From the NCBI GenBank assembly GCA_964658305.1, contig OZ210885.1, forward strand, positions 19,096,001 through 19,160,000: a DNA stretch of 64,000 nt. The letters are read 5' to 3'. Origin of the DNA: Leptogorgia sarmentosa. Taxonomy: Eukaryota. Below, piece by piece: positions 20,142-62,864 of this stretch; the stretch's first letter is position 1; each line of letters begins with the position of its first letter. The notes beneath the pieces were generated by a model, which saw only the letters and a list, made by a program, of their open reading frames with translations, was not told the DNA's origin and searched no databases. The position numbers were made by a program, and so were the translations under genes.

Positions 20142-20218
20142 ATTTACGTGCGTTTTTTACTTGTGGTTTTTACCTGAGGTTTTTCATATAAGTAGGCGTA
20201 ATGTAAATGATAAAACCC

Positions 20219-20595: not shown

Positions 20596-20640
20596 AATAC
20601 GCTACTATAATGGATTTAGAATATAAGACACATTGACGTG

Positions 20641-21267: not shown

Positions 21268-21310
21268 AAACAAAACATACATTCATTTGTGTGATACGTT
21301 GTGTACGATA

Positions 21311-26960: not shown

Positions 26961-27285
26961 TTAAGTAAATTAAATGTACCTAGAGATCTTGTAAGAAACG
27001 AAGAATCCATGAATAAACGTAAAAAACCCTTAACACAAAAGGAGGATTTACAGGACCATTTATGGCAATCACAGACACACTTTTTGACGTAATGGGTAAA
27101 AAGGTAGTTCCCCCATTGGTAATTCCGATTATATTGCCATAGGTCATCCATAATTCTCGGTGACTTTTATACCAATTTGTGGACAGTTGAGTATTTAACC
27201 AATGCACTTTAACCAATAATTATTTTAAATAAATTAGGATTAATAAACTTCCATTTAAAATTACTTATATTTGTGTCATGTTTAG

Positions 27286-39246: not shown

Positions 39247-40099
39247 TCCTGTCACACAGAGAACTTTAAAAACACCATCCAATCAGAAAACAGAGTCAGA
39301 ATTTGACCCTAATTTAAACTGATTGGCACAGTGCAATCAAACAATTTCCTCTTTCAACCAGAGGTTTATTTTTCCCTTTGCCATTTGCCCCGAAAATAAG
39401 GAAAATAAACCTCTGGAACCAGGGTAACAAAACTCTAGCCTTTGTTCATTTACAAACATAGCAAACCAGGAAATTGTTAGATTTTGGTTATTTTGTCATA
39501 TTTGATATGTTTCGGTTTTCAATAATGTAAACAAAGTGTCTAAAAAATTATAGTATGGTCCAGGGTGCATTCCATGTAGGTTTTGCGGAAGATCTTCGGC
39601 GCAAGGTTTGGATTGCTGGCGCACAAACACGTTGAGGCTGGCGCACAATTTTCGAATTTCAGTGGTTGGCGCAGCATCGCATATGTCCTTCAAAAATTTT
39701 TACTGCAGTAGTAGCTGAATGTGGTTATAAGTCGCTAATGTGTAAAATTTGTTGAAAGTTCAAAACAGTGTCAAATAGATGACTCAAGTATAAATTTAGA
39801 TTTTTGGCACTGATCTCAAAAGTAACACGGACGGACTGACACTGTCGGTCCGTGTTATGCACCTATCAATGTAAATCCCGCGGGGGGGCGGTGCGGGCAA
39901 AGGGTGGGGATTTGACAAAAAAATGAAATTTTAGGTCAAATTCCCGCGGGCTGGGAGATGGACATAGATCAAATGTGTCAAAAATCCCCATATGGGGGAC
40001 AGATTAAATTTAAATTCTAATAACAAAATACTTCTGAAAATATGAACAAGAGTATATATTAAAATGTATTAACAAGAACGTCTCAAATGTGTTTTGAAT

Positions 40100-40660
40100 A
40101 ATTGACCATAACGAAAAAGATGGCGGATGTACATTTTACCAGAATACACTGCGGTCAGAAATCGTTCAGAAAAGCGAATGGACGTCTTTTGAAGGCCAGG
40201 CGTAAGGCAGGAGGTTAATTCCTTCGTTGTGCTAAAGCTACATTTACACACAGCGATTTGTCGGGCTGATTTTGGTAAACAATTGGTGCCTTTTTTCGAC
40301 ATATTGCGATTTAAACCGTTCAATTAAAGCCGAACCCTCTCTCGTCTGTTTATATTATAGGTTTCTGCGTACAAAAAGTTTTCAACAATTTTACAACGGA
40401 AGAAAAATTGTTGAATCGTGAGAAAAATCTGTAGTTTTCTACAGATTTTTCTTCCGATTTTGTGAATCAGGTCACAAGCATTAACGATAGGTTAATTACA
40501 TAGGGCGAGCAAAATCGGGCCGACAAATCGCTGTGTGTAAACGTAGCTTAACATTTCTCATCATTAGGTTATTTCGTGTCATTTTTATTTAGTCATTTAC
40601 TGTTGATGCAATCATTCTGGTAAAATGTACATGCCGCCATCTCTTGTATTATGGTCAATT
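40100..40660. repeat. Inverted-repeat MITE in the 3' region of the Zator-like element
   Basis: AATTGACCATAA..AGATGGCGG.ATGTACATTTTACCAGAAT at 40100-40145 is inverted at 40616-40660. Confidence 0.7.
40236..40548. mobile_element. PIF/Harbinger-type MITE
   Basis: TIR AGCTAC(A/G)TTTACACACAGCGATTTGTCGG; TAA TSD on both sides. Confidence 0.85.
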
Positions 40661-40885
40661 GACTTTGCCAGCTTTCAACACAGTTTGGGCAAAGCCATAT
40701 ACGTGCATCATCAGAGGTGATACCAACAAACACAACTGTCACAACATTTCCAATCCACTTCTTAATTTGCTTTCTACTTCTGGGGACTCATCCATGTTAA
40801 ATGTACTTATTCTACAACAATTATATAATAACAAGAACATCTCAAATTAAATAATTAACTTTGCTTAACTTTGTGCTTTGAATAA

Positions 40886-43800: not shown

Positions 43801-44149
43801 ATTTTTTCATCACGTACAAGCGAAATGTCCCTTCTTTAAGCGAACCCACTCCGACAACTGCTAGAGGCATTTGTAACAATTTTCTACGAGCTTGAAAAGA
43901 CTTGTACTTGACATGTGGACTACACAACTTGAAAGCATCTGAAAGCTTTAGAATTCCTTTTTCTATAATTTCCTTTCCTACTTTGATCATCCCCTCACAT
44001 TCTGTACATGGTTTCTTGTGACGATGCGCGCAAACAATTGACCTGGCATGCAAATATTCAGGAAGTGTCAAACCTTCAAATTTTGAAACGTATATGTTTT
44101 CTTTAAGCAAATCATTAGTTGATAAACAATGTAATTTCTGTTGTTCCAT
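40886..44149 (-). CDS. Zator/TP36-like DDE transposase with C-terminal PHD finger, 1087 aa, uninterrupted
   Basis: Candidate triad GRDDQAG / RVDGSYDEGP / SGASYRNRVE resembles Zator DDKA / DGGPDENP / PGxSAxNxVE. Cys-rich region, then C4HC3 PHD CSTC...WICCDSCVGWHHMPC...WLCPNC. Confidence 0.8.
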   Translation of the reverse strand: MEQQKLHCLSTNDLLKENIYVSKFEGLTLPEYLHARSIVCAHRHKKPCTECEGMIKVGKEIIEKGILKLSDAFKLCSPHVKYKSFQARRKLLQMPLAVVGVGSLKEGTFRLYVMKKFKSENLNVIQALISEINTNKTKHQELSKDEVKKLLNLAESESERERLKYAVVKSSGISNSKAKTLYGFCDMSDRKTKVEQAMEEACAIKDAIENIAHVKDKILLQSFGIFETSESEDSTSETDTDNTDFTGRLQSNQTPEFDIAEQKRRHYSLDSDSVRVGVPYQQNWDADLLHTNLQELSDVLRKCDLNWFYFEREMNLPTNNSHKGYDKLLDFIRQLPSLGFSVQEIELIEQSRQAFLSTEHKHNDDQIDSDDTTDIYADTSDSASSEAEIWAKGIKSPMDEQGKLLILKRRSSIRRKCVRQIKKRLAESRFLKRRRSKKVGKIISDCPGIGKEIEDFVRQCGAGADAWRRTGILTFDGNRKTKKKTTFRRIKEHLEEKYGRTISYGSVVQLCCARNKRRRSAARYHGLAKVVSKRARKGFNVRYNPDQHWSSSLYAGLDKLQYEDGSNIVNIGRDDQAGFRLDTMATHKLHATLCVKGSEHITTRTDYVNKYPSNLQTTSYNFSGTKKTSEICAGIVKAPLLFGKNAAQHFGDLEMLEKKEEVRAAFINPFTGKRKEVECVRVDGSYDEGPSHIEVQYWWTVRHLNTKSRMLLVTSRNSGASYRNRVELQNGCLALAHANLFIPSTLNGSCLSSGGKINEEVLRENLSSAIEVYLSRVDKAPCAGTEINLFRGADSTNYQNENGFVITYLKGTLAQKEKLKEDHPNEYSKVKRIWDLRKRHLKKNVPAKYIFCLTCCYQPNCIHPLCQQGAPAEEPRWYPNGPPLSFLPLPAPDPKRRYDWSECKDCKEKCSGHYYKVDDLWQQVSQGKDIQLEPPSQVILNEFNCHLDVPDENRILEVSEKVLLPYDETKMWFDHLKTVAENRKRGVAKAAETRRAKSGKRQEEKRGRKQPTKRKNQDKNKGKQSLESRCSTCKMDEPPEVEGEEVDWICCDSCVGWHHMPCVGITSDDAHICRQWLCPNCVESWQS

Positions 44150-44169
44150 GTAAATGTTGATTATTTCGG

Positions 44170-44206
44170 GATCCCCTCTTCCTGAAGAAGAGGGGATCTC
44201 TAAAAA
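44170..44206 (-). promoter_or_regulatory. U-run/stop plus 12-bp stem-loop between the two Zator-like genes; candidate recoding or splice signal
   Basis: The minus strand reads GCTTTTTAG A GATCCCCTCTTC TTCAG GAAGAGGGGATC. The -1 frame is open into the transposase ATG. Confidence 0.55.
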
Positions 44207-46866
44207 GCCTGGCTTGAAGTAAGAGGGCTTGAGGGAGGAGACTCAGGAGAGATTATCAGAGTATCGCCGCTGGAATTTGATTCAAGATCTACTTGGTCTG
44301 GACGGACTACTGTGTCATTACCAGGATTATCAACGTTCATGTCAGGAGTCTGTATTAACATGGTACTTTCACTGGAATACGACTCACAGCTTACTTTCTC
44401 GGCAGGAATTAATGTGGCTTCACTTGAAACATGATCAGCTCTCGTATGTAAACCTACATCCAAATTAATAATTCCACCAGTTGACGATTTTGGTGGTTGA
44501 CCAGCACTTGATGTTAGTGTAGATTCGTTGCCTTGCTTTGGGATGCATTGCTTGAAAAGACTTGCAACATCTGACGCTTCTTTGACCTTTTTCTGAGGTG
44601 CACTGTCCGCCTTTTTGGTCTGCTTGCGTTTACCATACCACGTCGACTTTGATTCTTTTTTTTGGAAAGCCGCTAATAGCTTCTCATTTTCACGTTTTTC
44701 ACGCATAAGGACTCTTATACTATTTGACAATTCATCACACAGCTTGAAATCTTTCACTAATTTGGCTTTCTCTATTCTTGATTGCTTGATCTTGAGATGT
44801 TCTTCAATTTTACTGAGAAGGCTTTCGAGGTGTGATATCTCTCTTTGCCTTTCATCTTTGTCTACCTTTGCTCTTTTATTGCCTTCATCACTACTATTTT
44901 CACTGCTACTGGCACAACTTTTGGACCTGGAATATCCTTTCTTGAATAGGTAACCACTTTCTCGCACATGTTGTTTTGCTTTTGCGTACAGCTCGCCTAA
45001 ATGAGAAATAAAGTCAACATAATATATCTGATTTATTCCATATTTTAATCAATTCATTATGTGTTCAATGTGTTACAGCAATAGAGTGTAAATACTGAGC
45101 TTGTACCTATTGTATATCGTTGAAACGCCAAGGTATAAAGCTAGTATAAATGCTTCATGCAAATTACCAAATTTTGTGCTGACTTATAAAACTGATATCA
45201 AGTGTCTCATGACTTACCTCTCTGCAACAAAAGAGATGGTTCCTTCATCACTAAGTTTACTGATGCGTCATTAACAGCAATCTCATATTCATTCTTCGGA
45301 AGGTTATATATTTTAGCCTTCTCTTTTACTTTCAATTCCTCTCCAGTTTCAGTACTACCAGCTATTTCCTACAACGAAATATGACACTATCCATTATTTA
45401 ATAATTGTAGTCTCAAATTGTACACCATGTATGGTAAATCAATGACTATAAAACCTTTTTAGTGGTAATAACTTTTTTCATTGTTTTATTTGAAAGAGCA
45501 TGAAAAAATAAGCCGATTGGCCGTTTACTGTAATACATTTTAGTTGCAAAGTTGTTGACTTAGCACAACTTGTGACTTGTGACGTCACAAGTTGGATAAG
45601 TAGGTTTATTGCATTCAAAACTGAGCATAAGTCAGTTATTATATAATACTCAAAGTCCATGACGTTTTGCATACAGATACAACATGACGGGACGCATTGA
45701 AAAACGTTTCTGGTTTTTCTTGCCAAGATAACACTGTCATTCCCAGGCCCCTTATGGAATTTCTTAAAGGTGATATATTTATCCACGTGTGCATTTTTTC
45801 GAATTATTTTTTACTCAGTAAACCTTAGACATCTGTAGGTATCCATAGTAGACCCACTTCAGATATTATGTTATTCAAATCAATATCCAGTATACGGCGG
45901 TTTTATAGAAATCGTACGAGGGTCCTGGGAACGACAGTGTTACCTTGGCAACAAGACTTGAAATGTCTCAGCTCGTCATGTTGTACCTGTATGCAAAATG
46001 TCATTGAGTTTGAGGTAATAATAACTGACTTATGCTCACTTTTGTATGCAATAAACATACTTAACACAAGTTGTGCTGAGTCAGCAATTCATATTTTGCA
46101 AATAACTAAACTAAAAGACATAGTGTAAAAGTAAACAGTCAATCGTCTTATTTTTTGTGCTCTTTCAAATAAAACAATAAAAAAAATTTAGTTCCAATGT
46201 CATTTAATTAAAAACCTAATTCAACTATCAAACCAGCTACTACAGTATACAAATATTTTAATAGTAACATATAAGCAAAAATGACAAATTTACCTGTTCA
46301 TTTGGGCACCTTAAATCAAGAGTGCCTGTTTCAAAGGTTAACCTCTTCTGCTTATGATCATTGACATGGGTTGGGTTTGCAACTTTGTTTACTCTGACAG
46401 CCTCAAATCCATCAGCCAACAAAAAACATGTGTTGTTTGGGAAAGCACTAAAAACATCTTCATCATCAATAACAGATTCATCTTCTAACATAACTTTCAC
46501 GTTTTCTGCTTCACATTTGAGAGATAGCTTTGCTTTTCCTATTTATATAGTAAAACAAGCAAACAATATAAAATAAAAAAACTTTACCATCAAAACAAAT
46601 CCTTGACCTTACTTATTATATACATGTAGCTATCATTGAATATTCAGTTGAATGTTCTGCTTTAATATTTAATAAAAACAACGAATACATGTAATCAATG
46701 ATGCTGATGTTGCAATGGAAACTAATAATATCAATATCTATAAAACTATTCAAACAAAATGTACATATTTAATAATACCTTTAACTTTTAATTCCTCTAG
46801 CGTACTTGCAGTAATGCAGAATTTTTGATTATTCACACTCTTAACTTTAAAAATTTTGGAAGCCAT
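44200..46866 (-). CDS. Four-exon accessory gene, 426 aa: CIDE-N-like domain, NAB NCD2-like segment, coiled coil, Ser/Pro-rich tail
   Basis: Exons 46866-46779, 46538-46294, 45368-45218 and 44996-44200 all have GT-AG junctions with consistent phases (1,0,1) and total 1281 nt with no internal stop. Confidence 0.8.
45480..46178. repeat. Diverged foldback element in intron 2 of the accessory gene
   Basis: ATTGTTTTATTTGAAAGAGCA, AGCACAACTTGTG, TGAGCATAAGTCAGTTATTA and CAACATGACG recur as reverse complements at 45920-46178. Confidence 0.8.
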
Positions 46867-48021
46867 GAGACAATTTTACTATTAAAAAATATAGCGAAAA
46901 GAAAAATGTTCTGTGAATATCTTGATGCAAATATAGGCAATTTATTACTGACATTATCTATTCCATAAATATACATATTTCAATACACAAATGTCAATAC
47001 AAAAGGACGAATTTTCAGAAAACTTAATTACAGCTTTAAGAACTAAATAGATACACCGAATCGTAAGATGTAATTGGATTTTTTAACTCACCTATTCAAT
47101 CCAAAGTTGAAGATTTTCAACAAACAACGTCAAAGGTCTAACGACATTTAATACGACAACGTGCGAAAATCCAATATGACTTCCGCTTGCGCCTACTGTA
47201 AGGTTGTCCAGCTGACCACAAAATTTCGAATTCCGGTCAAACTTCCCCACCCCCGGAGCCATATTGTTGTTCAAATTCCCGAGGGACGGGAACAGTACTG
47301 AAGTCAAACCCCCACCCCTTGCCCGCACCGCCCCCCCGCGGGATTTACATTGATAGGTGCATTACTTTGAGATCAGTGCCCAAAATCTAAATTTATACTT
47401 GGCCCTTGGGTCACCTATTTTCACCTGTAAACAAAAAAAAGTGCTGTAAATTAATGAAAACTAAATGCAGCACTTGTTCCAAAGCAGCAAAAACGTTTTT
47501 CCATACAAAAAAAGAAGCTAAAAGCGTTATACATTACGCATAATACACGCATCCAAGATGATTACATAATCAGACCATTAAAGTCCGAAATCGGATGACT
47601 GACCGGCAACAGTGGTAAGTCTTAGTGTCATACGAAATTACGAATCATAAAAGTCTAATAATAATTTGATAAATGCGAAATCTATTTTTGCTTTTTGCTA
47701 TCCTGCTCAACAATAGAGTTTGAGTATAGTGATGTAACAGTGGATGTAGGATATATGTAAACAAAAACAACCTTGTGGCTTTTCCTCTAGCCCTCGATTA
47801 GTTGAAGTGCATACATAGTTGATAACCAAATTGTTTCCAGTTTGGGAGTACTTACTACTAAGACAGACCACTGAGAAGTGCTTCTGAGAATCCGGGGTAA
47901 ATTGACGGGCTATCTCAAGCTCAAACAGATTGCATAAGGTCATAACAACCAATTGTTTTTTCTGACAACTATTTATACTTCGTATGTGTTACAATTCATT
48001 CTGGTTTAACAGTTTTTAGCC

Positions 48022-51000
48022 ATGGAGCACATTTGTGCTGTTTGTTCGGAAGAGATAGGCATTGCGCATACATGCAGCACCTGTAACAAGTTTGTCCACA
48101 TCATTTGTGGTATCCCAGAAGGAGAAGAAGGCTTTGGTCAAAAAGTGAAATGCAACAACTGCGTTCAAAAAGGTATGGTGGCAACGTCAATTCTGTAGTA
48201 TTAACTAATATTCATCTATTTAACATAAAACCAGGTTGACGCTATTATTATTCAAAACTACATATTATATTCACAGCTACAATTGAGAGAGATCAACCAT
48301 CACATCCGTCGGCGAAAATTGCAAAAGCACCATTAAAAAGAAAGTTAAGTTCGGATTGGAAAAAAGGAGATGTCGTTGAGCACCCTGTTCCAGAGAAAAT
48401 CAGGAAGATAAACGAAAATTATGTTTGCCTGGAATGCTTTGAGAGATCGTTTGATGGAAAATTTGAGGGTAAAAATGCAAGTATTTGCAGAATAAATCCA
48501 TCTACCATCAATCGGCATAAAACCAGATGGCACACCAACGCCAACAACCAGTCCTGTACTGTAGTTCCTTCTAGTGCTCCCGATGTCCGAAAGTTGTATG
48601 CAAGATACGGTAAAGCGGTCGTTCCGAAGGATAGAAATAGACCTCAAGCGACCACAAGTTCTTGTCAGTCAACCAGCCAAAAAACGTTGCTGTCCTTCTG
48701 TAAAACCACTAGAGATCCGAATGAACCAACTAACCAAGGAATTAATAAAAATTTCAAGAAAATGACAGCGATAGCAAAAGCCAGCAGTGATTCATCTGAG
48801 TCAAATAACAAAGGATTCGAAGGAACTACTCGAGTTCTGAAGATGTAACGAAAACCAACATAGATTCAACTGGATCAAAGAGCCAAGCAAATATCGACGA
48901 CGTAATGAAAGCCATATCTAGCTTGTCTTTAAAGGTCGAAGACTTTGGTAAACGACACTCAAGTTTGGAACAACTCGTGGCAGAAGATAATGACGTCCTA
49001 AAGTCCCTAACGGCAATGCGAACTGCAAGCAATATCCATCAGTTGGCTGAGGCATCCGAATACCTGGAATTTTTTTATAATCAAGAATCGGACACTGCAT
49101 TGTTGCGTTGCAACCCTTGCTTTAAGATGCAAATAACGGCCAGGCCTACACTTAAGAACTTATCCCCGTTCCAAGCCCAAAGAATCATCAATTCTTGTGG
49201 AAGTGGGACACTTGGCACCGGAAAAATCTTCAGCAAGGACGTCACTCGACTTCTGGTGGAGGGACACAACCAAATCTGGTACAGGCAGAAGAAGTTGTGT
49301 ATTGACCACATGTGTTTACTGGGCGACGGTAGCAAATTACACAAGAAGGCTATGGAAGCTTTTAGAAAAGAAGAAGAAAGGGAGAAAAGAAGATCAACCG
49401 CGACAAGCAACATATTCCGAGCGGCAATTGTTGATTTGAAGCTAGGTGCAGCAGCCAGACATTTCGAGACTCTGATCTCCTTTTTGTCGTGTTGCTCAGT
49501 CGATATTGGAAATATTGGACATGGTCGAAATAATTTCAACGATATTCTTTCCTGCTTGGAGAAGTCAGTGAACCGACGAATCGATTCGTGGTTAAACGAG
49601 CCTCTACCCTCAACGTTACTACCACCGCATTTCTGGGCCACAATCGATAAAGCCACACCATCGCGTACGACGAATCAAGCCGTCCTTGTTGTAGCTCGGA
49701 ACGAGGTTGGAATTCCCTGTCCAATCCCTGTTGCTGCTCCGCAAGTCTATAAAGATTTCGCGCCAGCTACATATGACGCTATGGCAGAACTTATGATCAA
49801 ATCAATTAAGGACAACTTTTCGAAAGATGTTCTCTCAAGGCTTTGTGGCGTAGCGGCCGATGGTCCGTACCAAGCCGCAGGATTCCGGGAAAGTCTTTTA
49901 CAACAGCTGGGAATCGAAGACTCTGACAATGGTCAACTTTCACTTCCTGTGACGTGGGATGCAGCTCATCTTCTTAATCTTGGAGTACTCGAGGTAAAGG
50001 ACCAAAGTCCGAGTAGTGATCATTTCAAAACATTCTTGAAGAGGTGTAATGTTTTTAACAACATTCTTGCAAATGGAAAGGGCTTTGCTTTTCTGCAACT
50101 CGTTGACAAAGACGTAAGAAGACCAGTTGCTTATGCTACGCTAAGATTCGCTAGTTCATCGTACGAACAGTGGATTAAAATTGAAAAAAGCTACAGCGCA
50201 TTGTCGAAGGCGTTCGATAAACTGTATCCAAATCGAGCAGAAGATGAACAGTACCAGTACATGATCGCTGGGTCAGATTTTATTGCTGACCTGTTGTCAT
50301 TCCTCGACATATTAAAGCCAATTGTTGATTTGATGTTGAGAGTCCAGTCGCTCGACATGCCTATTTGGAAACTCAAACTTTGGTGGCCTCAAGTTAAAGC
50401 TAAACTGGAAAAGGCTGCAAACGGCGATGCCAGCTCCTTTCCGCGACTTCAAGAAGTTGGAGCAGCGATTAACCCTGGCGATCATTACCAAGGCGTGGAA
50501 CTTCTTGATGGGTGGTTGGTAAAAAATCAAGGTAGTGGAGAAGGACGCAGAGGAACTCTCAACTGGACGCAGCGAGAAGAAATGGAAATTGAGGAAGACC
50601 GCTTGCGATTAGCAGCTGATCTAATGAACGCTCTTGATAGAAGAGTTCAGCCTATTCTTCACGATCGCTGTTTGTCGACACTACAAGTGTTTGATGCCTC
50701 GGCCCTTGTAGCTCTACACTGCGGAAGATGGTGTTTTGCAAATGGCTGTGCCGGATGGAGAATACGAAACATATGGTGTGGAAGAATGTCGAAAGGTATT
50801 GGCTGTTGTTTCAAAAATGCCCCACATTATCAAATCTGGGATGGATTTTGATCCGCGTTTGGCATTTCGATTCATGGAAAAGATCAAGAAAGCTGTCAAG
50901 ATTGGTATCTGGGATGGACTGTGTTTAGATTGGTTTGCACTTGCTGAAGGCACTACTTCGTTACCAATGAACATTAAGCTGACATCGTTACAGCTTGTCG

Positions 51001-51482
51001 AGACAACAACACTTGACATGTTTTTTAAATTAAGATTCGTAAGTGGAAAAGAGTTCACCGTTCGCCTGCAAGAGCAACAGTTTTACAGATCGTTTTATTC
51101 TAACAAAGATGTCTACAACGTTGCAACGCTGTCATCATGTGCTCTTCTAGATATAGTGCTAGCGAAAGGAGGGCCTGAAGCAATTGCCGAGAGTTTCTAC
51201 AATTGCATGAGAGCTCAGCAACAGTCCGGTGGGCAATCAAATGAAAACCTTGCAAAAAGAACCAAGCTCAACTGGTGTTTACCTCCATTGAAGAAATGTG
51301 ATGGCATCATCAGAGAAGGCATCAGCTTGTTCTTTACAGGAGATGGTCCGGAAGGTGTGTTGAAACCTCACCGGAGTAATTATATGCACTCCAGCCGCGC
51401 TAAGGAGTATGTGGTGTCCAAAGTCGTCGATCGATTGGATGCAGAGCCAGGTCGTTGTCCTTTCCTGGCTGATCAGGAATAA
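48022..51482 (+). pseudogene. Divergent hAT-like transposase with N-terminal zinc fingers; two frameshifts
   Basis: Exon 48022-48172 (CAVC..CSTC..HIIC..CNNC), intron, exon from 48277 with BED-like CLEC..RHKTRWH. Core WATIDKAT, AADGPY, WDAAHLLNL, EAIAESFY. Frameshifts near 48820 and 50730. Confidence 0.75.
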
Positions 51483-52909
51483 CCTCGCAGATTGAGGAGT
51501 TTATTATGTTTATAAGTATGTACAGTAACTGGCGATTGAATGCCTTTAATGTTAAAAATGCACTGGGATTGAAGTTTGTTAAACAATAACTATAAAGTAT
51601 TAAAAATGATAGATCAAGGTTAAGATATTACTGTGAGATCACAACTAAGTACCATGCTGTAACTCAGTACCATGCTGTAAGCCTGTAACTCCTGTATGAT
51701 GCAGATTTTCAGCACGCAGCTCCAATAAATATTTTAGTTGTTTCAGGTATTTTAGTAACTTTAATGTTTGTCAGCAGAGCATGACTCTACTGCTTATCTT
51801 GTATAATTCCTCTATGAATTTTGAATAATTACAAAAAAGAAATGTCATAGTTGATGACTTGTGTTCGCGCATAAAGGTGCAGTAACTAAGTAACTTCTGT
51901 AACTTGTGATACAAGTCATACAACACTAACGACATTCATCATTGGTCAGCAGGGAAAAACTTTCGGTTTCCTATCAGCTGCACGCCTTTTAGGCGCTTCA
52001 GCAGGATTAAACTATTCAAACAACTAACTAATGAAAAAATCTTGGTGGGGGGTATCCCGTATCCGTGTAAGCCGGAAGGCTGGGACCGGCGCACAACTTA
52101 GCATAACTTGGCCCACGGCAACACAACTTGAAATCATCTTCAGCAAGAGGTTTACACGGAATGCACCCTGGAGTATGGTTTTACATTGAAAGGTGGTGGA
52201 AAGAACTTCATCATCGTCTTGAGATACATTTCAAGCAGCAGTTCCACAGAATTTGATGAACGGTATTGTGACTCTGATGATCAAACTGATAGGTATGTAA
52301 TTTCATTTGTAGTTAGTCAACACTTACGTATTTAATACAGCCTTAACTACACAAAAGGATTCAATTCATAACCTGAGTGTCGTACTGTATTATGACATTA
52401 AAGGTGGAAGCCTTGTATGAGGGTGAGATTTTCAAAGCCAGTATTCCTTCACAGTACATTATTCTGTTGTGCCTGTCATGGAACTACATAATTTTCACAT
52501 GAATGAATAGATAAAAACTTTATTGGAACCCTTAACTCTGAAAGAAACAATTCCCAGCCACAAATTCATTATAACAAATTAAATTAAAATAAATAAATCC
52601 ATAATTTCATCATTATTAATTTACTATTTAAAAGTTGCTTTAGAAAGGATTTTCATCAGTGCAGTAAGATTGTACTTGTTAGTTAAAGGCCTACACTCAA
52701 ATCCTTATTTATTAACTTCAAAATACCATATACTGTTTTTTTCGTGCCAAAGTTACTTGTCTTTATATTTTTGTGGCTGTATTAGCGCCAGGTGCATTTT
52801 ACCTTCCACAATGACTGCTAAACCTGACCATGACAGGAGATATAGATATTCTTGTTTATAATATAGATACTGCGAATCCAATTGATAAATTACGGTGGCC
52901 CATAAGGGC

Positions 52910-53162
52910 CACACATTCTCCGTAGAAACATGCACCTTCTCCGTGCAAACACGATGTTATTTCAAGGAAATGAATCTTCTCCGTGGAAATTTGACTTTGT
53001 TCTGTCAAAAATGACCTCTTCTCCGTGCAAGCACATAGATTTTCCACAGAAATACTGAGTTTTTCCCCGGAAATACTTGTAGTGGCCCTAACGGGGCACC
53101 TCTTCTCCGTGGAAATACACAGCTTCTCCGCAGAAACACGCGTCTTCTCTGTGCAAACACGT
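52910..53162 (+). repeat. Iterated CTTCTCCGT(G/A)(C/G)AAA motif within the TIR (mirrored at about 59073-59325)
   Basis: Roughly ten degenerate copies; candidate transposase-binding sites. Confidence 0.75.
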
Positions 53163-53416
53163 GCCTATTCTGACTTTAATTTTAAAATAATTAAAGCCTC
53201 ATAAATATATATTCATAATTTATGCGACGGGGGGATGGGTACCTTTCAAAAATGGATCGATATGATTACAATGTTACATGTTTGTCGGTTGTAAACACGT
53301 GGTAAGCAGTATACCCAAAAAATTTTTATTCAAAGCTATGAAATTGTGCATACAATGCGGAGAGCGTGTTGGGCAAGTTGTGCTCGTACGAAGTTGAATT
53401 AAGAGTTGTAAATATA

Positions 53417-55376
53417 ATGGATGCGGACATTCAACGAACAAATTGCGAGAATTGTCAGGCAGAGATTTTCAATAATTATAACTATTGCAACAAATGTGGA
53501 AGTAGAGTCAACACAGTTGAATCTGGTAAGTTCATAAATTTTTTTGAAAAATAAATTTGTGTTATCTTTATTCAGTCATTTATTCCTGATGCTCTCAAAG
53601 CAATTACATGGAGCATTTTTTTTTTGTTATGGTCAAGCTACTGGTGACCAGTAAAATGTGTACCTTTGCCTGTGGTCCTTCATAAATTTTTGCTACAAAA
53701 AATATTAGTCAAAATTAAAACTAACGTGGCATTGCCACAAATTGCAATAAATTTGTAAAAGTCACCATTTTTATTGATATTTACTCCAATTTTATTACTA
53801 TTGACAGGAGATGAAGAGGTGTTTATTCGACAGTACTTTCATCGTGGTTTTTCATTTGATGTTATATTAGATTTTTTAAGCAAACATCATGGAGTATCCA
53901 TGAGCATGCGCACACTCAAAAGGAGACTTCAAAAGTATGGCCTGAAGAGAAGAAACTGTAACACAGATGAGGAAACAGTACGAAATCTTGTTAGGATGGA
54001 GATGGCTAATGCAGGACAACAGTCTGGCTACCGTACTATTTGGCATGCACTTCGACTCATTCATAACATACATCCACCAAGAAAATTGGTTGCCGAAATT
54101 CTACGGGAGCTGGATCCTGAAGCAAGTAATGCACGCAGGTCTAGAAGGTTAAAGAGGAGAAAATACTTGTCCCCAGGTCCAAATTATTGTTGGCATGTAG
54201 ATGGTGAGTTTGAAATTGTTTCAAAAGCTGTTTGAAATTGTCAGTGCTGGCTTAGGTATTTGGAATTGTAGTATACATCACACCCCACAATGACCATTTA
54301 TTGCTTTTCTTCCACTGGCATTTACTCACCAATGGCTTCATTTTCATGATTTATTTTTTATCAGTAGATTCTCCTGAATGTAGTATCCCAATATTTGTTG
54401 AACAAAAATGTTTCTCTGAGTTTAAGCTCCAGTATAATTGCATCCTCAGCCCTGATTACACAAAATGACCATGTGAAAATGAGGCCATTAGGTATGATTC
54501 AACAAAGGCTATGGTTGTCAGTTGTTGCCCACTGAGTAATGACAGTAATTATTAGCACCCCCAAAAAGGTGCCCCCAAAAGTTAATTCAGTATGATTCTG
54601 TTAAAATAGGTTACGACAAATTGAAACCATATGGGTTTCCGATACATGGGGCCATTGATGGCTACAGTCGTAAAGTACTATGGATGGAAGTAGTCAGAAC
54701 CAACAACTCGCCTCATGTTCCCGCACGACTTTTCCTCGATGCTGTCAAGCAATTAAACGGATGCCCCACTCTGCTAAGGACAGATTGTGGGTCAGAGAAT
54801 GGGATAATGGCAGCGATTCAATGTTATTTCCGGGCAGAGGCACTTGACCAGTTTGCTGGGGAAAGTGCACACAAATATGGAACTTCCACAAGCAACCAAA
54901 GGATTGAGAATTGGTGGTCCCATTTCAGAAAAATGAGATCCCATTGGTGGATCAATTTCTTCAAGGACATGTGTAGCTCTGGTGTGCTTGATGTCAGCAA
55001 TGATGTTCAAAAAGAGTGTCTATGGTTTTGCTTTTATCACATTTTAGATGCAGATATTAAGAAAACCGTAGCAGCTTGGAATTCACACCACATCAGACCA
55101 TCAAGACATGACTGTGTTTCTGGGTCTCCAGACATACTTTTTTATCTGCCTGAGCGGTCAGGGGCTATTGATAATTTGCAAATAGTTCAGGAAGCCAAAA
55201 TAGTTGAAATGGAACTTTGTCACGAGATTAATCGGGAAGATAATGTTGAGGAAAATGACTACCAAGAGTACTTTCACTACCTGATGGAAAATGAAAGAAT
55301 GCAATATCCCACGAGCCCAGAGGAAGCGTTTGATGTTTATCAGCACCTGATGAATATAGCAGAACCTCGACTATAA
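53417..55376 (+). CDS. IS3EU-like integrase-core DDE transposase, 423 aa; exons 53417-53525, 53808-54203, 54610-55376
   Basis: Zinc ribbon, HTH-like SMRTLKRRLQKYGL, GPNYCWHVDG|YDKLKPYGFPIHGAIDGYSR, RTDCGSEN, NQRIENWW, WNSHHIR. Phases consistent and no stops. Confidence 0.92.
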
Positions 55377-55630
55377 TCCTTTATCATGGACCATATCAGC
55401 AAAGCATACATTGTACAAAGTTATCATTTATTGTTATAACTATCAAAGAAAGGTCTGAAAATGGACAGTGTTATTCACAAAATGTTCTTTCCATTCTTGT
55501 TTTTAGTAACAAAAGAATACTTATAGTCTACCAGTAGTTGAAATCTTGAATGTCAAATTGAAGAAAAAACACCATCCCTTATCATATTTACTGAATCAAA
55601 TTTCGAACAAGCAAATCAGTATACTTATAT

Positions 55631-58600
55631 TCACAGATTTCCAAAGCCAACACCTTCTACCATAGCAGAGTCAATATACATATTAAATTCTTCTGGCCCA
55701 GTGGTGTGAACAGGGAAAGTGATACTTAGATCACAGGTCGATGATGTCGGTCTGCATTTACATGTAGCAGGGCAACCATGCTTAAATTTTACTGTGATCC
55801 CTTCGGGGAGACCCAGTGGAGGTACTGCATTTGACCCAGTGATAAACTGAAGCAATTTCGGCAGACACGTTTCCTGGTTTGCTACAGCATAAAATAAATA
55901 AAACTCTAACATTAATGTCAAGTTGCATTATTCATCAAAATGAAATGTAATTATAGTAGAATCAAAATGTACCTTTATATGCAAAAAACTTACCAGAGTA
56001 CTTGCATTCTTCTATGTAATCACTGAAATACTTGTAGATGTTGATTTCAATTTCCTTCATGTTAGAGCCATCTTCACTGAACTCACCATGCATGTTTTGC
56101 AAAAAGGTTTCCGCATTAACTGCAAAAATACTTGATTTTGCAAATACCGGTTCCAGTAACTTAGCATTCTCTTTAATGCTTTGAAGAATTCCAAATGCAT
56201 GTAATCCTTCGATCATTTGGTCCAACATTGGCATTTTGGCAGAAAAGTCAAACATTACAATTGACCTACAATATTAATGAAGTTTGTCATCATGTATTGT
56301 TTTACACCTACTGTACCTGTGTGGGGTATCTAATGTTTGGCAGCAAATTAAAGTCTCAATTGGGGTTTATTTACAGTTTACACATAATCATATAGCAATT
56401 TATTCATTACCCAGCATGGTAAATAATCACCACAGATGGAAAGGTTTTTTTTAACTTAATTTCAAACTGCTTGCAATTTACCTTACAATTGACTCCATGT
56501 TGTTGAAGCTTTCTCTCGATGGGACTCCCCTGTAGCCAACTTTCTCCAGAACGTCAAGTACATTCTCAGAAAGCAGGGTGTCTCTGAATGTTGCTTCATC
56601 TTTACAGTTATGTAACTAGAAGTAAATAAATCATATATCAAGTATTATCTATGAGCTTCCGGCAATGAACTAATTGTTACAGGCTACAATACTCATGTTT
56701 CACTCAACAAAGTATATATACTTTAAAACATCAAGTAGCAGATAAAGTCATATACCTTTTCTATGGTTCTCTTTAGACAAACGTCTTTAACAATATCATG
56801 TGCATCATCAGCCGTAATGCTTGCAACACCATGCACAATATATTGAAATGATGATCGGTTAAGTAGAGCAGGGGCTGGACCACCTTGAACAACCGAGCTT
56901 GCCATAAGTTCTCCCACCACTTTAAATTCTCCCTTTGCAAGGGCAGCCATGTTAGAAACAGGAAATCCATCATGAAACAGTTTCCTACCCATTTGTTCCA
57001 GTGCTTCTGTTGTGAAAATAAAATCCAGTTAATTTACCAGTAAATCAAAGAAAAAATCAACAAGCATCACAAGTTCTACTCACTACCTAAATGATACATA
57101 TGGATAAAGGCATTTCGAGGCCCTTTGCCATGAAATTACTGTGGAGGGCCTTTGCTCAAAATGTCGAATCTGTTTCAACCCTAACCCCAACATATAACAG
57201 CTGTAGAGAGTAAACATAAACAGTATACTGTACCTGAAAAAAATTCCCTTCTGGGACCGCCGTCATCAACAGCTGGTTCCCCAATGAATGTTAATTTCAG
57301 CTTGCTATTTTGGTTGAATTTTTTTCTTCTTATAAGGCGCTCACGTGCATCAACATAATCCTCGTACGCGTATTTTCTCCTGATAGAGATTCTATTGACT
57401 TTTTCTGTGTCAACATGTTGATGAAGACCCAAGATAATTTGCTTGATTTTTTCCAATGGTATACAACTTCCATCATCATCTATTGTTGTACTGACAGGGG
57501 ATTTCTCCATGACTGATTCATCTTGCTCATTTAGCATCTCTGACTGTAAATCAATGTGCACAATACCAACAGGATCAAACTGATCTGCACAAGCATCGGC
57601 ATGTGACTCAATATCATGTATGGGAAAGTCCAAGTAGCAAGTTGGACATCTTGCTTTGGGCTCACAAGACTGATTGGGTATTGTATCTGCAGAAACATTA
57701 GTTTCTAAAAAAGAAACGATGGATGTCTGGGTTTCACTTCCCATTCCTTGTACCGGTACTGACAAGATTTCTTCATCTTCTTCAATCTCATCTATATCGA
57801 CATAAAATTTCAGTTCCATTTCATGTTTTCGAAGGCATTCTAATTTGCATAGATGTAGTGACATTTTGGAGTAAGGTTTTCCCAAATCCTCTTTATAAGC
57901 TTTCAGCGAAAAAAAATCTGAGGACCCCGGTAAGAGATTCACTTCTGTGTTGTCTGGATAGAGAAGAACATATTCATTGATATTTCCATTGAATGAACGA
58001 AAATGTTTGCAGTGTTTATTAAGTGCTGCTTGGAGTAAACCCTTTGTATTGATACTTGTGTCGACAGCAATTGGAAGGGTCCTTCCTTTTAGTAACTTTA
58101 AACAAGAGTCGGCTTCGCTAAACTCCTTTATGCCCACTTGAATTTTTACTTTTTCAACAGTATTAGCTTTAGCCTTGCTGGACTTTGATTTCTTGAGTGG
58201 TAAAGTTGATACTCTCTTGGTCTCTTTTCGCTTTCGGAATTCTTGATAGGTTAAGGAATTATGTTGCCTGGTTTCTGGACTTGCGAGAGAACTTGAACTC
58301 GGAGCTGAAGCAGATTGAGCTGCATGAGATTGACCTTTAATTAATGAATATATAGGAATAGATTTATATAGAATTTCTATATATTTTATTTTTAGAATCC
58401 AACACAATAGATTTATAAATAGTAAAATATTAATATTATATTATTAAGCAAAACCTAAGCAGCTTATATTACATATTACCTAGCTTACCTAGCTATAGTT
58501 ACGAAAATATATTTTCAATAGTTGAAAGTTTGATTTAGGCCATGGAAGCACCGCTTTGATACACAGATATTATATATACCAATTTTGGAAATTATAAATA

Positions 58601-58897
58601 AAAATATGCAATTCTTTACTCCACAATACTACAATAGTACCCCTTACTATTTTGTGTGAATAAGTGGATAGACAAATTGGAGGTTAAATATAGTACTGAG
58701 TCAATTTGAGATAAACTGATAGCTGATTCTTCAGACGACCGGAGTATTATTACTAATTTAAATATTTGCACACATGCTTTCAGAAAATATATAAATAAAA
58801 CATAAATACACTTACTGTTTACGAACATTCCTCCGCAATGCGGACAAAAATTGCTCTCATCCCCAACACGCTCTCCGCATTGTATGCACAATTTCAT
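55631..58897 (-). CDS. HECT-domain (G2E3-like) E3 ubiquitin ligase, 696 aa; exons 58897-58816, 58334-57234, 57006-56756, 56615-56482, 56265-55994, 55881-55631
   Basis: All junctions are GT-AG with consistent phases, total 2091 nt. Zinc ribbon CIQC..CPHC, UBZ-like CPTC..IESHADAC, FIGEPAVDDGGPRREFF, LLQFITGS..VPPLG, catalytic PTSSTC, terminal GFG. Confidence 0.9.
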
Positions 58898-59437
58898 AGC
58901 TTTGAATAAAAATTTTTTGGGTATACTGCTTACCACGTGTTTACAACCGACAAACGTGTAACATTGTAATCATATCGATCCATTTTTGAAAGGTACCCAT
59001 CCCCCCGTCGCATAAATTATGAATATATAATTATGAGGCTTTAATTATTTTAAAATTAAAGTCAGAATAGGCACGTGTTTGCACAGAGAAGACGTGTGTT
59101 TCTGCGGAGAAGCAGTGTATTTCCACGGAGAAGAGGTGCCCCGTTAGGGCCACTACAAGTATTTCCGGGGAAAAACTCAGTATTTCTGTGGAAAATCTAT
59201 GTGCTTGCACGGAGAAGAGGTCATTTTTGACAGAACAAAGTCAAATTTCCACGGAGAAGATTCATTTCCTTGAAATAACATCGTGTTTGCACGGAGAAGG
59301 TGCATGTTTCTACGGAGAATGCGTGGCCCTTATGGGCCACCGTAATAAATTGATACTGTTCTCATTTTTGTTATGTATACTTGGAAGATTTGGTCTGGGC
59401 TGGCCAGGGTGTTAGGTGTGTCGGTATGAAGGGTGCT

Positions 59438-59940
59438 CAGTGGCATATCGCTACCACTGGGGGTCACTGCTATTCGGCCACTTCTGTCCCCCCCCCCCTT
59501 GCTCCACTAAAAATACTAAAATAGGCTGCATGTACGATCTCCTCTTTGCAATCGCAATCTCCATTTGTTAATATACATTTTTTAATTATCATTCCAAAGA
59601 ATCCTGAACACAAATAATATTTGCATTTTATTGAAAATATACTAAAATCCCCATCCGTACAAACGTTGTCAATTTGGACTGTGAATACCCTATGCAAAGT
59701 TCAGTTTCGTGCATCTTTGCACGTTTTCGTTTGACTTTCAAGCCTGCAGCGTTGTTTTTCATAAAATTATAACATAATAACATTAATGAGCAACTCAGCT
59801 TTCAATCTGCCTGTTGTTCACAATTGAATTTCTTAGAATTGTGCTGTCAAATTTTTTATAGTAATTTTTGTCGGGGGCCCCTAAAGCTGCGAGGGGTTTT
59901 CTGTCACTTGACACCCTGACATCCCTTTGTTATGCCACTG
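59438..59940. mobile_element. hAT-type MITE
   Basis: TIR CAGTGGCATA / TATGCCACTG. 8-bp TSD AGGGTGCT, whose right copy is displaced to 63266-63273 by the next element. Confidence 0.8.
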
Positions 59941-60460
59941 AGGGTCATACCTAATTTTAGTGTGCAGTGATAACCAATTTGTGCAGTGATAAAAGTAAAA
60001 TGTGCAGTGATAAAATGCTAAATGTGCAGCAATAAATTTTTAGAAGCAGTGACCTAAAAAATTGAACGATAAAACAAGTAACAGTGAAACATTACAAATA
60101 TAGAGCATGATAAATTTATAATCACGATATATAAAGATGTAAACCAATGTAAACAAAGAAAAATATGGTGTTTCCACTTTCCACTTTCTATCATGAAGAA
60201 AGGGAAATTTCAGGAAATGGAAATTTAAGATATTGTCGGTTGCAACTTTTTGCAACAAAGGACAAACAGTCAAACAGTAGCGGAAAGGAAGTTACAGACA
60301 AGCCATATAGTTGCATTATTGCAATAATTATTGCCCATTTCCACATGAAACGTCATTATTTGTGGAGAACTATTTGCGCTGATCACTCCACAACTGTTCA
60401 CCCTTAGTTGCCAGCGACGGTAACACCATGTGGTAACACCGAAGAACAGAATTTATTAAA

Positions 60461-62864
60461 ATGTCTGATGCAAAACAGCGAAAGATTGAAAGTTTTATAC
60501 CATTAAAATCAGTGGATGCACATTCATCAAAGCAACGACAGCTTAACAACCAACAGATTGAACAAAATGGCCCAGAATTAGCCACTACGTCCACAGAGCC
60601 TACATCTAGGACTTCTAGTAATAGCACTGCCAGTGGAGAATCTAACGATGAAATGGACGAAGATTTTGCAACATATCCCAGTAGTTCTGACAGTGGTCGC
60701 AATTTTGTCGCTTCTGTACCCACAGCATTGGCATCTGAGCTAACAGAAACACAATTGTCATTTGTGAAACCGGATGCGTCCAAATCATTTGCCTCTCATA
60801 AAGACTATTCTATTCAGCCTGTGGCAGGACAGAAACGGAAACGTGTTTTTTGTGTCGTATGTTCAGCAAATCCTGCTATTGTGAAGCGTGCGTGTTACAG
60901 GGGAAGGGTGCCGCCAATTTGTCAACCCGGAGGGACAGAAGCAAGAGAGAAAACAGTTCAAGAACACTTACAGAGCATTGCGCACCAGGAATGTCTCAAA
61001 GCAGAACGCTTAAAAAAACTCTCAGCTGTAGAAAAATCTCAATCTGTGCCACTGGAAAAAATGTTTAGTTCACAGCGTCAGCGGCTGGCCAATAAAATTG
61101 GATCATTGATACTTCATGTATACAATGATGCAAAATGCTTAACGTCGTCTGCCTTTTCCTGGCCGTCAAGGGTAATTGCTGCAAAAATGGCATACGAGTT
61201 TGATTACAACAAACCATTTAAACCGTACAGCCCTTCTAATTTTGACCTGCAGTACATTAGACCTCCAGTTGTGCAGGAACTTTTACAGACCATAGTGTCA
61301 GCTGATTTACCAAGAATTGAGAAAGAAATTGATTCATGCATTGCTGCATCTTTTCGTTGCGATGCATCTATGGACCAAACACAAAAAGGTAATGAATACA
61401 TGCTTCTCAATATCATAAAGAACGATGGGAAAAGGGATCTAAAATTTATTGGTATTGGGCATGTGACAGAACCAGGTGCACCTGGTCATCTGCAAGCACT
61501 TAAATCAGGTGCAGCTGATACTGTTGGCTTAGACAAAGTACTCAAAGTAGTCAATCATCTATCAACTGATGGGGAAAGTAAGAATACTGGGCATTCATCT
61601 GCAAATGCATATAAAGATTTGTGTAAGACTGTTCCAGAAATTGATCATTCGGTAAAGAAGTTATCTGGAATTGCTACATTTTTCCACACCTCAGCAAAGC
61701 GTACCACTGATTTAGAGAAAGTTGGGGAAAAAGAAGGACTAACTGTACGTCGCATTCTGAAATACTTTGAAGTCCGATGGTCAGAGTTTACTGCTGCTCT
61801 TCTTGATTCTATTTTGTGTTCTTGGTGCCGTGTGGAGGCTAACTTATATGTTACTGACCACAGACTGTTTAGTGCTGTAAGAAATGAATCCATTTTGGCA
61901 ATAAAACAGTTTATGGACCAAAGACTTAAAGTTGATAAAAATGCCTCAAAAGCGTTCACCTCTTTCACCAAATTCACAGCAAACGAAGATGATATAAGAG
62001 ATATCCATCACTCTATTGCTCCTGACCTCAGTTTGGGAAATTTGGCTATTCAATTTCAGGAGTTGCAAGACTGTGATGAGATACCAAAAGAAAATCCTCA
62101 CACAGTCCTACAGAGCATTGTGAAAGGAGATCAAGAACATTACTATGAAAATGTTTCTGTTGTTCTTGGCTGCATTCTAGCATGTAAGCCACATTCTGCC
62201 GACTGTGAAAGAGTCATTTCATTGTACAACAAAGTAAAATCAACATGTAGATCATCCTTGAAACCAGGGGCGTAGCCAGCCCTACAAAAGTGAGGGGGTC
62301 CATTCATCCAGTAGATCATATAGAGCTATACTGCGCATACAAATATGTCCAAACGTATTTCATATATTTTAGGCGGGGATGTTATGAACTTGAAAATAAC
62401 AAATGTTTCACAAGTGCACCATAAACCAAACAGCCTAATGTGTGTATATTAATCAAATAATATATTAATCAAATGTTGGGAATCCAATGGTGATTAGCCT
62501 ATGAGGAGGCGTATCCTTATATCCGCTTTTTTACTTGATTTTGAAGGAATTGAAAGACATGTTTTGAATAAAAGTGGGGGGGTCCGGACCCCCCCATTCC
62601 CCCCCGTGGCTACGCCCCTGCTTGAAACGTCAAACTATGAGCGACTACCTCTACATAAACATGAATATGCCACCTCTCTCTGAGTTTGATCCAAGACCTG
62701 CAACTTTGCAATGGATGAATGAGAAGGACCATAGGACAAGAAATATTCCGAAAGCAGGAGAGCAAGATTGGTTCAGCAACGTTTTCCAGCAAGATAACAA
62801 CTTTGATAATCCAGAACTAGCTCAAGGGAAAGCGGACGAAAAGCCAATAAAACGAACGTTTTAG
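60461..62864 (+). pseudogene. hAT transposase interrupted by a MITE, with apparent in-frame deletions
   Basis: CVVC..HLQSIAH, RCDASMD, STDGE, FEVRWSEF, PHSADCERVIS. The frame continues SLK|RQTMSDYLYINMN after removing the MITE. The CxxH region appears deleted. Confidence 0.85.
62265..62620. mobile_element. hAT-type MITE
   Basis: TIR CAGGGGCGTAGCCA / TGGCTACGCCCCTG with perfect 8-bp TSD CTTGAAAC. Confidence 0.95.

What the first reader, a model, noticed from the sequence alone, without database searches (positions are those of the whole stretch)
52891..59344. Intact IS3EU-like transposon encoding a complete HECT E3 ubiquitin ligase
Seen: a perfect TSD, ~99% identical TIRs, an intact three-exon DDE transposase, and a convergent intact six-exon 696-aa gene with a zinc ribbon, a UBZ-like finger and a HECT domain that keeps the catalytic Cys (PTSSTC) and the terminal Phe. 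Known: IS3EU elements have TAY..RTA ends, 6-bp TSDs and a second, poorly characterised protein. Inference: the element may bring its own ubiquitination enzyme, for example to degrade silencing factors, modify chromatin or turn over the transposase. Many 'G2E3-like' gene models in aquatic animals could then be transposon genes.
Basis: partly seen in the sequence, partly recalled or inferred. Interest (0 to 1): 0.82.

Follow-up and report, generated by a model that had tools for sequence, protein, structure and literature searches.

The report
IS3EU transposon with own ubiquitin ligase
This is an intact animal cut-and-paste transposon that carries, facing its transposase gene, a second gene for a predicted ubiquitin ligase which has travelled with the transposase in many related elements, and the ligase domain of the vertebrate heterochromatin gene G2E3 may descend from this transposon gene family.

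Summary
Observation confirmed: a 6,454-bp IS3EU/GingerRoot element with TACGG..CCGTA ends, a 6-bp TSD, 483-bp TIRs, an open three-exon transposase and a convergent open six-exon 696-aa HECT gene (zinc ribbon, ubiquitin-like domain, UBZ-like finger, catalytic Cys). The HECT gene belongs to the element. A convergent IS3EU transposase follows it in 9 of 14 informative families, and five complete elements with perfect TSDs carry both genes. dN/dS between families is 0.05-0.28, the Cys is kept in 88 of 91 sequences, and HECT and transposase distances co-vary (rho 0.83). A ligase-dead derivative still spread to three sites, so the ligase is not needed in cis. Both genes begin with a zinc ribbon in or beside the TIR. 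Mammalian G2E3's HECT scores 181 bits against this family's profile versus 88 for the best solved HECT, and nests among PHD-less members, but the AU test did not reject a position outside them (p 0.16). Activity, expression and substrate are untested. This scan noted the same gene pair earlier on other DNA (six notes). My searches found no paper on it; Repbase entries were not visible.

The parts
52885..52890 (.). Left target-site duplication, 6 bp (ATAAAT)
52891..53373 (+). Left TIR, 483 bp, begins TACGG; holds about seven copies of a short subterminal repeat (likely transposase binding sites) and the likely promoter of the transposase gene
   Evidence: binding and promoter roles are inference
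53338..53397 (+). 19-codon upstream ORF: the first 12 codons of the HECT gene copied in the left TIR, stopping 19 bp before the transposase ATG
53417..53525 (+). Transposase exon 1 (CxxC-x10-CxxC zinc ribbon)
53808..54203 (+). Transposase exon 2 (weak HTH-type matches, first catalytic Asp168)
54610..55376 (+). Transposase exon 3 (integrase-like core, Asp227, Glu268, stop)
55377..55630 (.). 254-bp spacer between the two convergent stop codons; one AATAAA on the minus strand at 55432
55631..55881 (-). HECT exon 6: C-lobe with catalytic Cys663 (55733-55735) and Phe693
55994..56265 (-). HECT exon 5
56482..56615 (-). HECT exon 4
56756..57006 (-). HECT exon 3
57234..58334 (-). HECT exon 2: basic helix, ubiquitin-like domain, acidic linker, UBZ-like finger, start of the HECT N-lobe
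57589..57648 (-). UBZ-like finger (CPxC-x11-HAxxC); other relatives carry a CUE or UIM match
   Evidence: UBZ4-type reading is recalled
57826..58158 (-). Ubiquitin-like (beta-grasp) domain
   Evidence: AlphaFold pLDDT 94-98, Foldseek and VIA-align
58816..58897 (-). HECT exon 1 (zinc ribbon); its first 12 codons lie inside the right TIR
58862..59344 (-). Right TIR, 483 bp, ends CCGTA; likely promoter of the HECT gene
   Evidence: promoter role is inference
59345..59350 (.). Right target-site duplication (ATAAAT)

Best explanation
This is an intact two-gene IS3EU/GingerRoot DNA transposon whose second gene encodes a predicted active HECT ubiquitin ligase that has been inherited with the transposase and likely serves transposition itself, most likely by ubiquitinating the transposase or proteins at the transposition site. 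Shown: ends, TSD, two open spliced frames, HECT and ubiquitin-like folds, co-mobilisation in relatives, purifying selection, co-varying gene distances. Inferred: the two TIR copies act as twin inward promoters, so both proteins are made together. Inferred: the shared zinc ribbon and the ubiquitin-like domain bring the ligase to the transposase or the element ends, and the UBZ-like finger holds it on ubiquitinated chromatin or on the growing chain. Inferred: ubiquitin passes through Cys663 to mark the spent transposase complex for removal so that the 6-bp gaps can be repaired, or to cap transposase levels. It would act in trans. I put the element identity and 'own gene' at about 0.95, catalytic activity at about 0.8, and this substrate class at about 0.45.
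For: Anatomy. Convergent transposase downstream in 19 of 27 loci with at least 3 kb downstream, 9 of 14 families, against 2 of 21 loci upstream. Perfect 6-bp TSDs around HECT plus transposase in L042, L051, L053, L055 and L064. Catalytic Cys in 33 of 35 locus C-lobes and 55 of 56 protein C-lobes; dN/dS 0.05-0.28 between families where dS was finite. Mantel rho 0.83, P 0.0001, 13 elements, with the same sub-groups in both trees. Fungal TET cargo, by contrast, clusters by host and moves between transposon superfamilies (PMC12730594 passages). In L035 both proteins begin with an identical TIR-encoded zinc ribbon. HECT fold of the 36%-identical homologue P0002, top hit HUWE1 E 2.6e-12. Ubiquitin-binding-type modules recur in relatives (UBZ-like, CUE, UIM).
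Against: L051, L052 and L053 share a 1.6-kb deletion of the ligase 5' part and a frameshift, yet sit at three different sites, so the ligase is not needed in cis. Five of 14 informative families lack the convergent arrangement: two have a transposase in another position, two have only 3.0-3.3 kb downstream, one is bacterial. Two close pairs gave weaker constraint (dN/dS 0.48 and 0.67). The Mantel value is driven partly by two large clades, and co-inheritance follows from linkage alone. Rust-fungus IS3EU elements carry an alpha-kinase opposite the transposase, so a HECT is not universal in the superfamily.
Confidence: 0.45

Rival explanations
1. The ligase is an anti-silencing or chromatin-opening factor: it ubiquitinates host histones or silencing proteins so that the element stays transcribed or its target stays accessible.
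For: Its closest host relative G2E3 is described as a HECT-type ligase that mono-ubiquitinates H3K14, with loss of the mark on mutating the catalytic cysteine (PMC12920882 passage). Fungal IS3EU carry TET/JBP genes proposed to help escape silencing. Action in trans fits L051-L053.
Against: HECT distances follow the transposase across deep splits, unlike TET cargo, which follows the host. The window protein lacks G2E3's PHD/RING part, and another paper places G2E3's H3K14 activity beside its PHF7-like RING (PMC13061254 passage).
Confidence: 0.3
2. The protein is a non-catalytic adaptor or ubiquitin reader that keeps the HECT fold but does not transfer ubiquitin.
For: The family is divergent: full-length homologues score only 35-48 bits on Pfam HECT, and solved HECTs reach at most 88 bits on the family profile.
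Against: Cys kept in 88 of 91 sequences and the terminal Phe in 85 of 91; complete predicted HECT fold.
Confidence: 0.12
3. The HECT gene is a recently captured host G2E3-like gene riding as a neutral passenger, as Selaginella GingerRoots carry host gene fragments.
For: GingerRoot elements carry host gene fragments with introns (PMC6839031 passage). Ligase-dead copies can spread.
Against: Those captures are fragments, whereas this gene is whole, under purifying selection, in a fixed position in 10 families and co-diverged with the transposase. Marin 2010 lists no G2E3 in the cnidarian ancestor.
Confidence: 0.05

Closest known systems
IS3EU/GingerRoot superfamily (Repbase; Kojima and Bao 2023, PMC10045372; Cerbin et al. 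2019, PMC6839031)
   Same: TA..TA termini, 6-bp TSD, and transposase core motifs matching IS3EU-1_HM, IS3EU-5_DR and coral AD_GR-003 by eye in the paper's alignment.
   Different: Neither main text mentions HECT or ubiquitin. TIRs here are 483 bp against 100-150 bp in clubmoss GingerRoot. Repbase names such as IS3EU-1_CGi_2p imply an annotated second protein whose description I could not see.
Rust-fungus IS3EU with alpha-kinase and TET/JBP genes (PMC12730594)
   Same: TAYGG..CCRTA ends, 6-bp TSD, and a second enzyme gene in opposite orientation to the transposase.
   Different: The opposing gene is an alpha-kinase there and a HECT ligase here; there is no TET gene here.
Vertebrate G2E3 (P0196, Nannospalax galili)
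   Same: Its HECT domain belongs to the same divergent HECT family: 181 bits on the family profile, 213 bits pairwise to P0160.
   Different: G2E3 has a PHF7-like PHD/RING N-terminus instead of zinc ribbon, ubiquitin-like domain and UBZ, its aligned C-lobe stops before the family's terminal GFG, and it is only 18% identical to the window HECT.
Canonical HECT ligases (NEDD4/Rsp5, E6AP, HUWE1, UBR5)
   Same: Bilobed HECT fold, catalytic Cys, Phe near the C-terminus.
   Different: Only 13-20% identity in fold alignments; the N-terminal module set is not theirs; the window's clade adds an H-x-C-x3-C-x-C motif just before the catalytic Cys.

Membership tests
IS3EU/GingerRoot | TA..TA termini (TAYGG..CCRTA) with TIRs | tested here: met
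   TACGG..CCGTA, 483-bp TIR; definition
IS3EU/GingerRoot | 6-bp target-site duplication | tested here: met
   ATAAAT on both sides; paralogous flank copies join across the element within a few bases
IS3EU/GingerRoot | Integrase-like DDE transposase of the IS3EU/GingerRoot lineage, without an HHCC motif | tested here: met
   Pfam rva_4 E 1.5e-23; D168, D227, E268; core motifs match the Repbase IS3EU rows by eye. No tree with Repbase sequences was built.
IS3EU/GingerRoot | Evidence of mobility of the two-gene unit | tested here: met
   In relatives, one family at four sites with different perfect TSDs and a second family with one. For this copy only the intact TSD and 99% TIRs.
HECT E3 ligase | HECT domain by profile and fold | tested here: met
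   Pfam cut-off passed by exon 6; 67 PDB sequences hit by the family profile, the 60 shown all HECT ligases; fold of homologue P0002
HECT E3 ligase | Catalytic Cys in the C-lobe and Phe about four residues from the end | tested here: met
   Cys663 and Phe693; conservation
HECT E3 ligase | Forms a ubiquitin thioester and transfers ubiquitin | not testable with these tools
   needs an in vitro assay
RAD18-type UBZ finger | CxxC-x11-HxxxC finger that binds ubiquitin | tested here: inconclusive
   Pattern invariant in 32 of 32 rows; no Pfam UBZ hit in the window protein, only sub-threshold hits in relatives; binding untested
G2E3 orthologue | PHF7-like PHD/RING N-terminus joined to HECT | tested here: not met
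   No PHD match in any exon, while P0196 has it
G2E3 HECT derived from the IS3EU HECT family | G2E3 nested inside transposon-type HECTs on a rooted tree | tested here: inconclusive
   Nested with 100/99 and 96/86 support, but AU test p 0.156; outgroup was four bacterial HECT-like proteins; none of its seven closest relatives has a shown transposase neighbour

The most novel reading that the evidence does not exclude
Animal IS3EU/GingerRoot transposons are built as symmetric two-enzyme units in which the TIR supplies promoter and zinc-ribbon start to both a transposase and a dedicated HECT ligase; most multi-copy 'G2E3-like' gene models in corals, molluscs, tunicates and fish are these transposon genes, and vertebrate G2E3, the H3K14 ubiquitin ligase of heterochromatin, arose by fusing a domesticated IS3EU HECT to a PHF7-like PHD/RING module.
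Probability: 0.5. Interest if true: 0.85.

Novelty: new variant of a known kind. Interest (0 to 1): 0.66.

Why it matters
It names the little-studied second protein of animal IS3EU elements and gives a DNA transposon a dedicated ubiquitin-writing enzyme, which can be tested with a two-plasmid transposition assay. It warns that 'G2E3-like' expansions in coral, mollusc, tunicate and fish annotations are probably transposon copies and not host ligase families. It also offers an origin for the late-appearing HECT domain of G2E3 (Marin 2010), which would be a domestication of a transposon's helper gene into the host's heterochromatin machinery.

Tried and rejected
No whole genome is held for the window, so copy number in the source genome is unknown. 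No RNA holder was listed; runs X9-X11 gave no cover of the element interior, which says nothing about expression. Contig depths were not used as copy numbers. Viral-contig scans with the transposase, the HECT alignment and P0160 found nothing, so no genomic context was obtained for the G2E3-side clade. The prokaryote scan gave one distant chlamydial HECT-like gene without a transposase. Rfam gave two weak matches far below threshold. The ESM Atlas gave only unnamed eukaryote clusters for the ubiquitin-like region. The Cys labels printed came from a faulty pattern and were replaced by the aligned count. A first IQ-TREE run timed out. The AU test did not reject G2E3 outside the family. Kojima's 2019 review and Wang et al. 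2017 were not held. Rejected: chance neighbourhood (2 of 21 upstream control), recent neutral capture, and G2E3 orthology of the window gene.
Full report
Observation. The element spans 52891-59344, begins TACGG, ends CCGTA and is flanked by ATAAAT on both sides. The TIRs are 483 bp with 5 mismatches. Three exons give a 423-aa transposase and six exons on the other strand a 696-aa protein, all seven introns GT-AG and neither frame interrupted. Transposase exon 3 matches Pfam rva_4 (E 1.5e-23), HECT exon 6 passes the HECT cut-off, and HECT exon 1 passes a zinc-ribbon cut-off. Contigs from six of the eight runs laid join 52889 to 59353 with 8 other letters between. They differ from the flanks at many positions, so they are copies of a repeat that the element landed in, not the empty allele; they still place the boundaries within a few bases. 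Runs X4, X5 and X6 of a second study hold near-identical pieces of both genes, and X7 (another organism label) holds about 95%-identical pieces of both, on separate contigs. No RNA run was listed. The host is probably an anthozoan, inferred only from the closest named homologues, Paramuricea (44%) and Acropora (36%).

Class of element. Kojima and Bao define IS3EU by TA..TA termini and 6-bp TSDs and join it with GingerRoot (PMC10045372, passages). In their supplementary alignment (part 12 of 18 read) the cores of IS3EU-1_HM, IS3EU-5_DR and coral AD_GR-003 carry the same motifs as the window transposase around D168, D227 and E268. This was a comparison by eye.

The second protein. AlphaFold on exon 2 with 32 sequences gave a confident domain at model residues 59-169 (pLDDT 94-98) that matches ubiquitin-like folds (Foldseek: Ring1B C-terminal domain and UBL domains near E 1e-3; VIA-align best Z 9.8, rmsd 3.0 over 87 residues, many tied rows). 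A C-P-x-C...H-A-x-x-C finger is invariant in 32 of 32 rows. Some relatives carry CUE or UIM matches, which points to a ubiquitin-binding slot; reading the finger as RAD18-type UBZ is my recall. The full-length homologue P0002 folds as a complete HECT (mean pLDDT 85; top hit HUWE1, E 2.6e-12). The spliced window protein itself was not folded. The catalytic Cys is present in 33 of 35 locus C-lobes and 55 of 56 protein C-lobes, the terminal Phe in 33 of 35 and 52 of 56. The family is large: 2,782 representatives at 50% identity with E up to 0.001.

Is the ligase part of the element? A metagenome scan with the exon-2 alignment confirmed 128 matches and returned the best 79 loci; a prokaryote scan added one. 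Of these 80, 27 have at least 3 kb downstream of the HECT motif, and 19 of the 27 have a convergent IS3EU transposase; at 4 kb it is 14 of 19. Collapsed to families it is 9 of 14 and 6 of 8; ten families show it at any length, and only 2 of 21 loci with 4.5 kb upstream have a transposase on that side. The misses are the L058 family and L068 (transposase pieces in another arrangement), L038 and L062 (only 3.0-3.3 kb available) and the bacterial L080. Complete TATGG..CCATA elements holding both genes have perfect 6-bp TSDs at L042, L051, L053 and L055 (one family, four sites) and at L064; L043 and L045 have both ends without a matching TSD. dN/dS for the HECT gene between families was 0.05-0.28 where dS was finite (Nei-Gojobori, mostly near saturation), two close pairs gave 0.48 and 0.67, and the transposase gave 0.07. 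Over 13 elements with both genes, HECT and transposase distances correlate (Mantel rho 0.83, P 0.0001) and both trees split the same two clades and several of the same pairs; L033 was left out for short cover. Linkage alone gives this pattern, so it shows old co-inheritance and not physical interaction.

Result against a strict need. L051, L052 and L053 have different flanks but share a 1.6-kb deletion of the ligase 5' part and one frameshift. A ligase-dead derivative therefore moved at least three times; the ligase is dispensable in cis and, if needed, works in trans.

Symmetry. The HECT ATG and 11 further codons lie inside the right TIR; the left TIR holds the same 12 codons as a 19-codon upstream ORF in front of the transposase. 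In this clade both genes start with the same kind of zinc ribbon, and in L035 the two proteins share an identical 37-residue start encoded by the 122-bp inverted ends of the contig (the contig ends there, so the full TIR is unseen). I infer that the TIR supplies twin promoters and, ancestrally, the first exon of both genes.

'G2E3-like' models. NCBI models named G2E3-like or uncharacterised fall in this family in corals, Mytilus, Lingula, Anneissia, Branchiostoma, Clavelina and several fish (20 proteins looked up by cluster). Clusters at 90% identity contain four Cololabis models on four different large contigs and at least four Clavelina loci on different contigs, and one cluster spans Acropora, Montipora and Porites. 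This is what transposon copies look like, but I could not fetch the DNA around these named models.

G2E3 itself. Marin 2010 (PMC2837046, passages) found G2E3 to be one of only two HECT subfamilies that appear after the chordate-echinoderm split. A search with one locus C-lobe returned mole-rat G2E3, P0196, whose N-terminus is PHF7-like. Its HECT scores 181 bits on the 84-sequence family profile against at most 88 for any solved HECT. Pairwise it scores 213 bits to P0160 and 61 to a single exon of the TSD-bounded L051, against 19.9 to the best solved HECT. In a 37-row tree rooted on four chlamydial HECT-like proteins, G2E3 lies in an eight-row clade (100/99) whose other members lack a PHD-like Cys-rich start; P0100, P0143 and P0081 in it have the transposon-type ubiquitin-like domain. 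The AU test did not reject G2E3 as sister to the whole family (p 0.156), the outgroup is distant, and none of the seven neighbours has a shown transposase. Shared ancestry is firm; direction is likely but unproven. A research highlight describes G2E3 as the HECT-type H3K14 ligase of pericentromeric heterochromatin (PMC12920882, passage), while the E3-ome paper stresses its PHF7-like RING (PMC13061254, passage).

Mechanism. I favour a ligase that acts on the transposition machinery (0.45) over an anti-silencing ligase (0.3), a non-catalytic adaptor (0.12) or a passenger (0.05). The deciding argument is that it tracks the transposase and shares its promoter and N-terminal tag, whereas fungal TET cargo tracks the host and hops between superfamilies (PMC12730594, passages). 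That paper also reports an alpha-kinase opposite the transposase in rust IS3EU, so the opposing slot holds a protein-modifying enzyme in both kingdoms. No binding or activity was shown here.

Literature and novelty. Searches: IS3EU (62 papers, 40 listed); IS3EU plus ubiquitin ligase (0); HECT, transposon, transposase, terminal inverted repeats (9); G2E3, HECT, transpos (4); DNA transposon, encodes, E3 ubiquitin ligase, HECT, Repbase (2); G2E3, PHF7, HECT (6). By listing none addresses this. HECT and ubiquitin have no occurrence in the main texts of PMC10045372, PMC12730594, PMC11934779 and PMC6839031 (term searches; section 21 and the abstract of the last were read). PMC13015453 and PMC11394658 were seen as passages. 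Repbase entry texts, Kojima's 2019 review, subscription papers and most supplements were not seen and could already note the HECT. This scan recorded the same gene pair in six earlier notes on other genomes; a word search for a G2E3 domestication note found none. Verdict: real, a new variant of a known kind, interest 0.66.

Noticed in passing
window 33349-33918 (-): A second HECT N-lobe piece of the same family (188 bits on the family profile, 25% identical to the element's), with no C-lobe and no IS3EU transposase found in the window near it; it abuts a direct repeat at 32797-33067, so it may be a decayed element cut by an LTR retrotransposon.
   Followed up: partly
window 55745-55765 (-): An H-x-C-x3-C-x-C motif directly before the catalytic PTSSTC, present in 11 of 35 locus C-lobes, all of the window's clade; it could be a metal site beside the active site.
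   Followed up: partly
window 57056-57098: A very high-copy short repeat inside HECT intron 2 (summed contig depth far above the rest in several runs); no Rfam match.
   Followed up: partly
window 52660-52890 and 59351-59850: The element is inserted in a multi-copy repeat whose other copies join across the site.
   Followed up: partly
run X10, record covering window 59154-59348: A contig with 195 bp of the TIR end but other sequence on both sides, suggesting a short derivative or a sister element at another site.
   Followed up: no
window 39785-47401: Another inverted-repeat-bounded element of about 7.6 kb with a 1,118-aa ORF (40886-44242, -) ending in a PHD finger and a 282-aa ORF.
   Followed up: no
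window 16677-21988: ORFs that read like a broken protein-primed DNA polymerase B, a packaging-type ATPase and a small structural protein, i.e. a Polinton-like remnant; labels are from recalled motifs.
   Followed up: no
window 8305-11484, 22705-26961, 27847-33067, 48240-51482, 60437-62275: Further mobile elements: an inverted-repeat element with P-like transposase pieces, a Gypsy-like and a BEL-like LTR element between direct repeats, and two hAT-like ORF sets; labels are from recalled motifs.
   Followed up: no
proteins P0160/P0241 and the P0002 cluster: HECT domains 99% identical between Larimichthys and Scomber, and one 90% cluster across Acropora, Montipora and Porites, hint at horizontal transfer of these elements.
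   Followed up: no
L064:3998-4525 and proteins P0116, P0119, P0216: Elements of the other transposase clade have a different N-terminal module in front of the HECT, not matched by the window clade's ubiquitin-like profile.
   Followed up: no
L083-L104: 15 of 401 genomes of a chlamydial phylum sample encode HECT-like domains above the Pfam cut-off; used here only as outgroup.
   Followed up: partly
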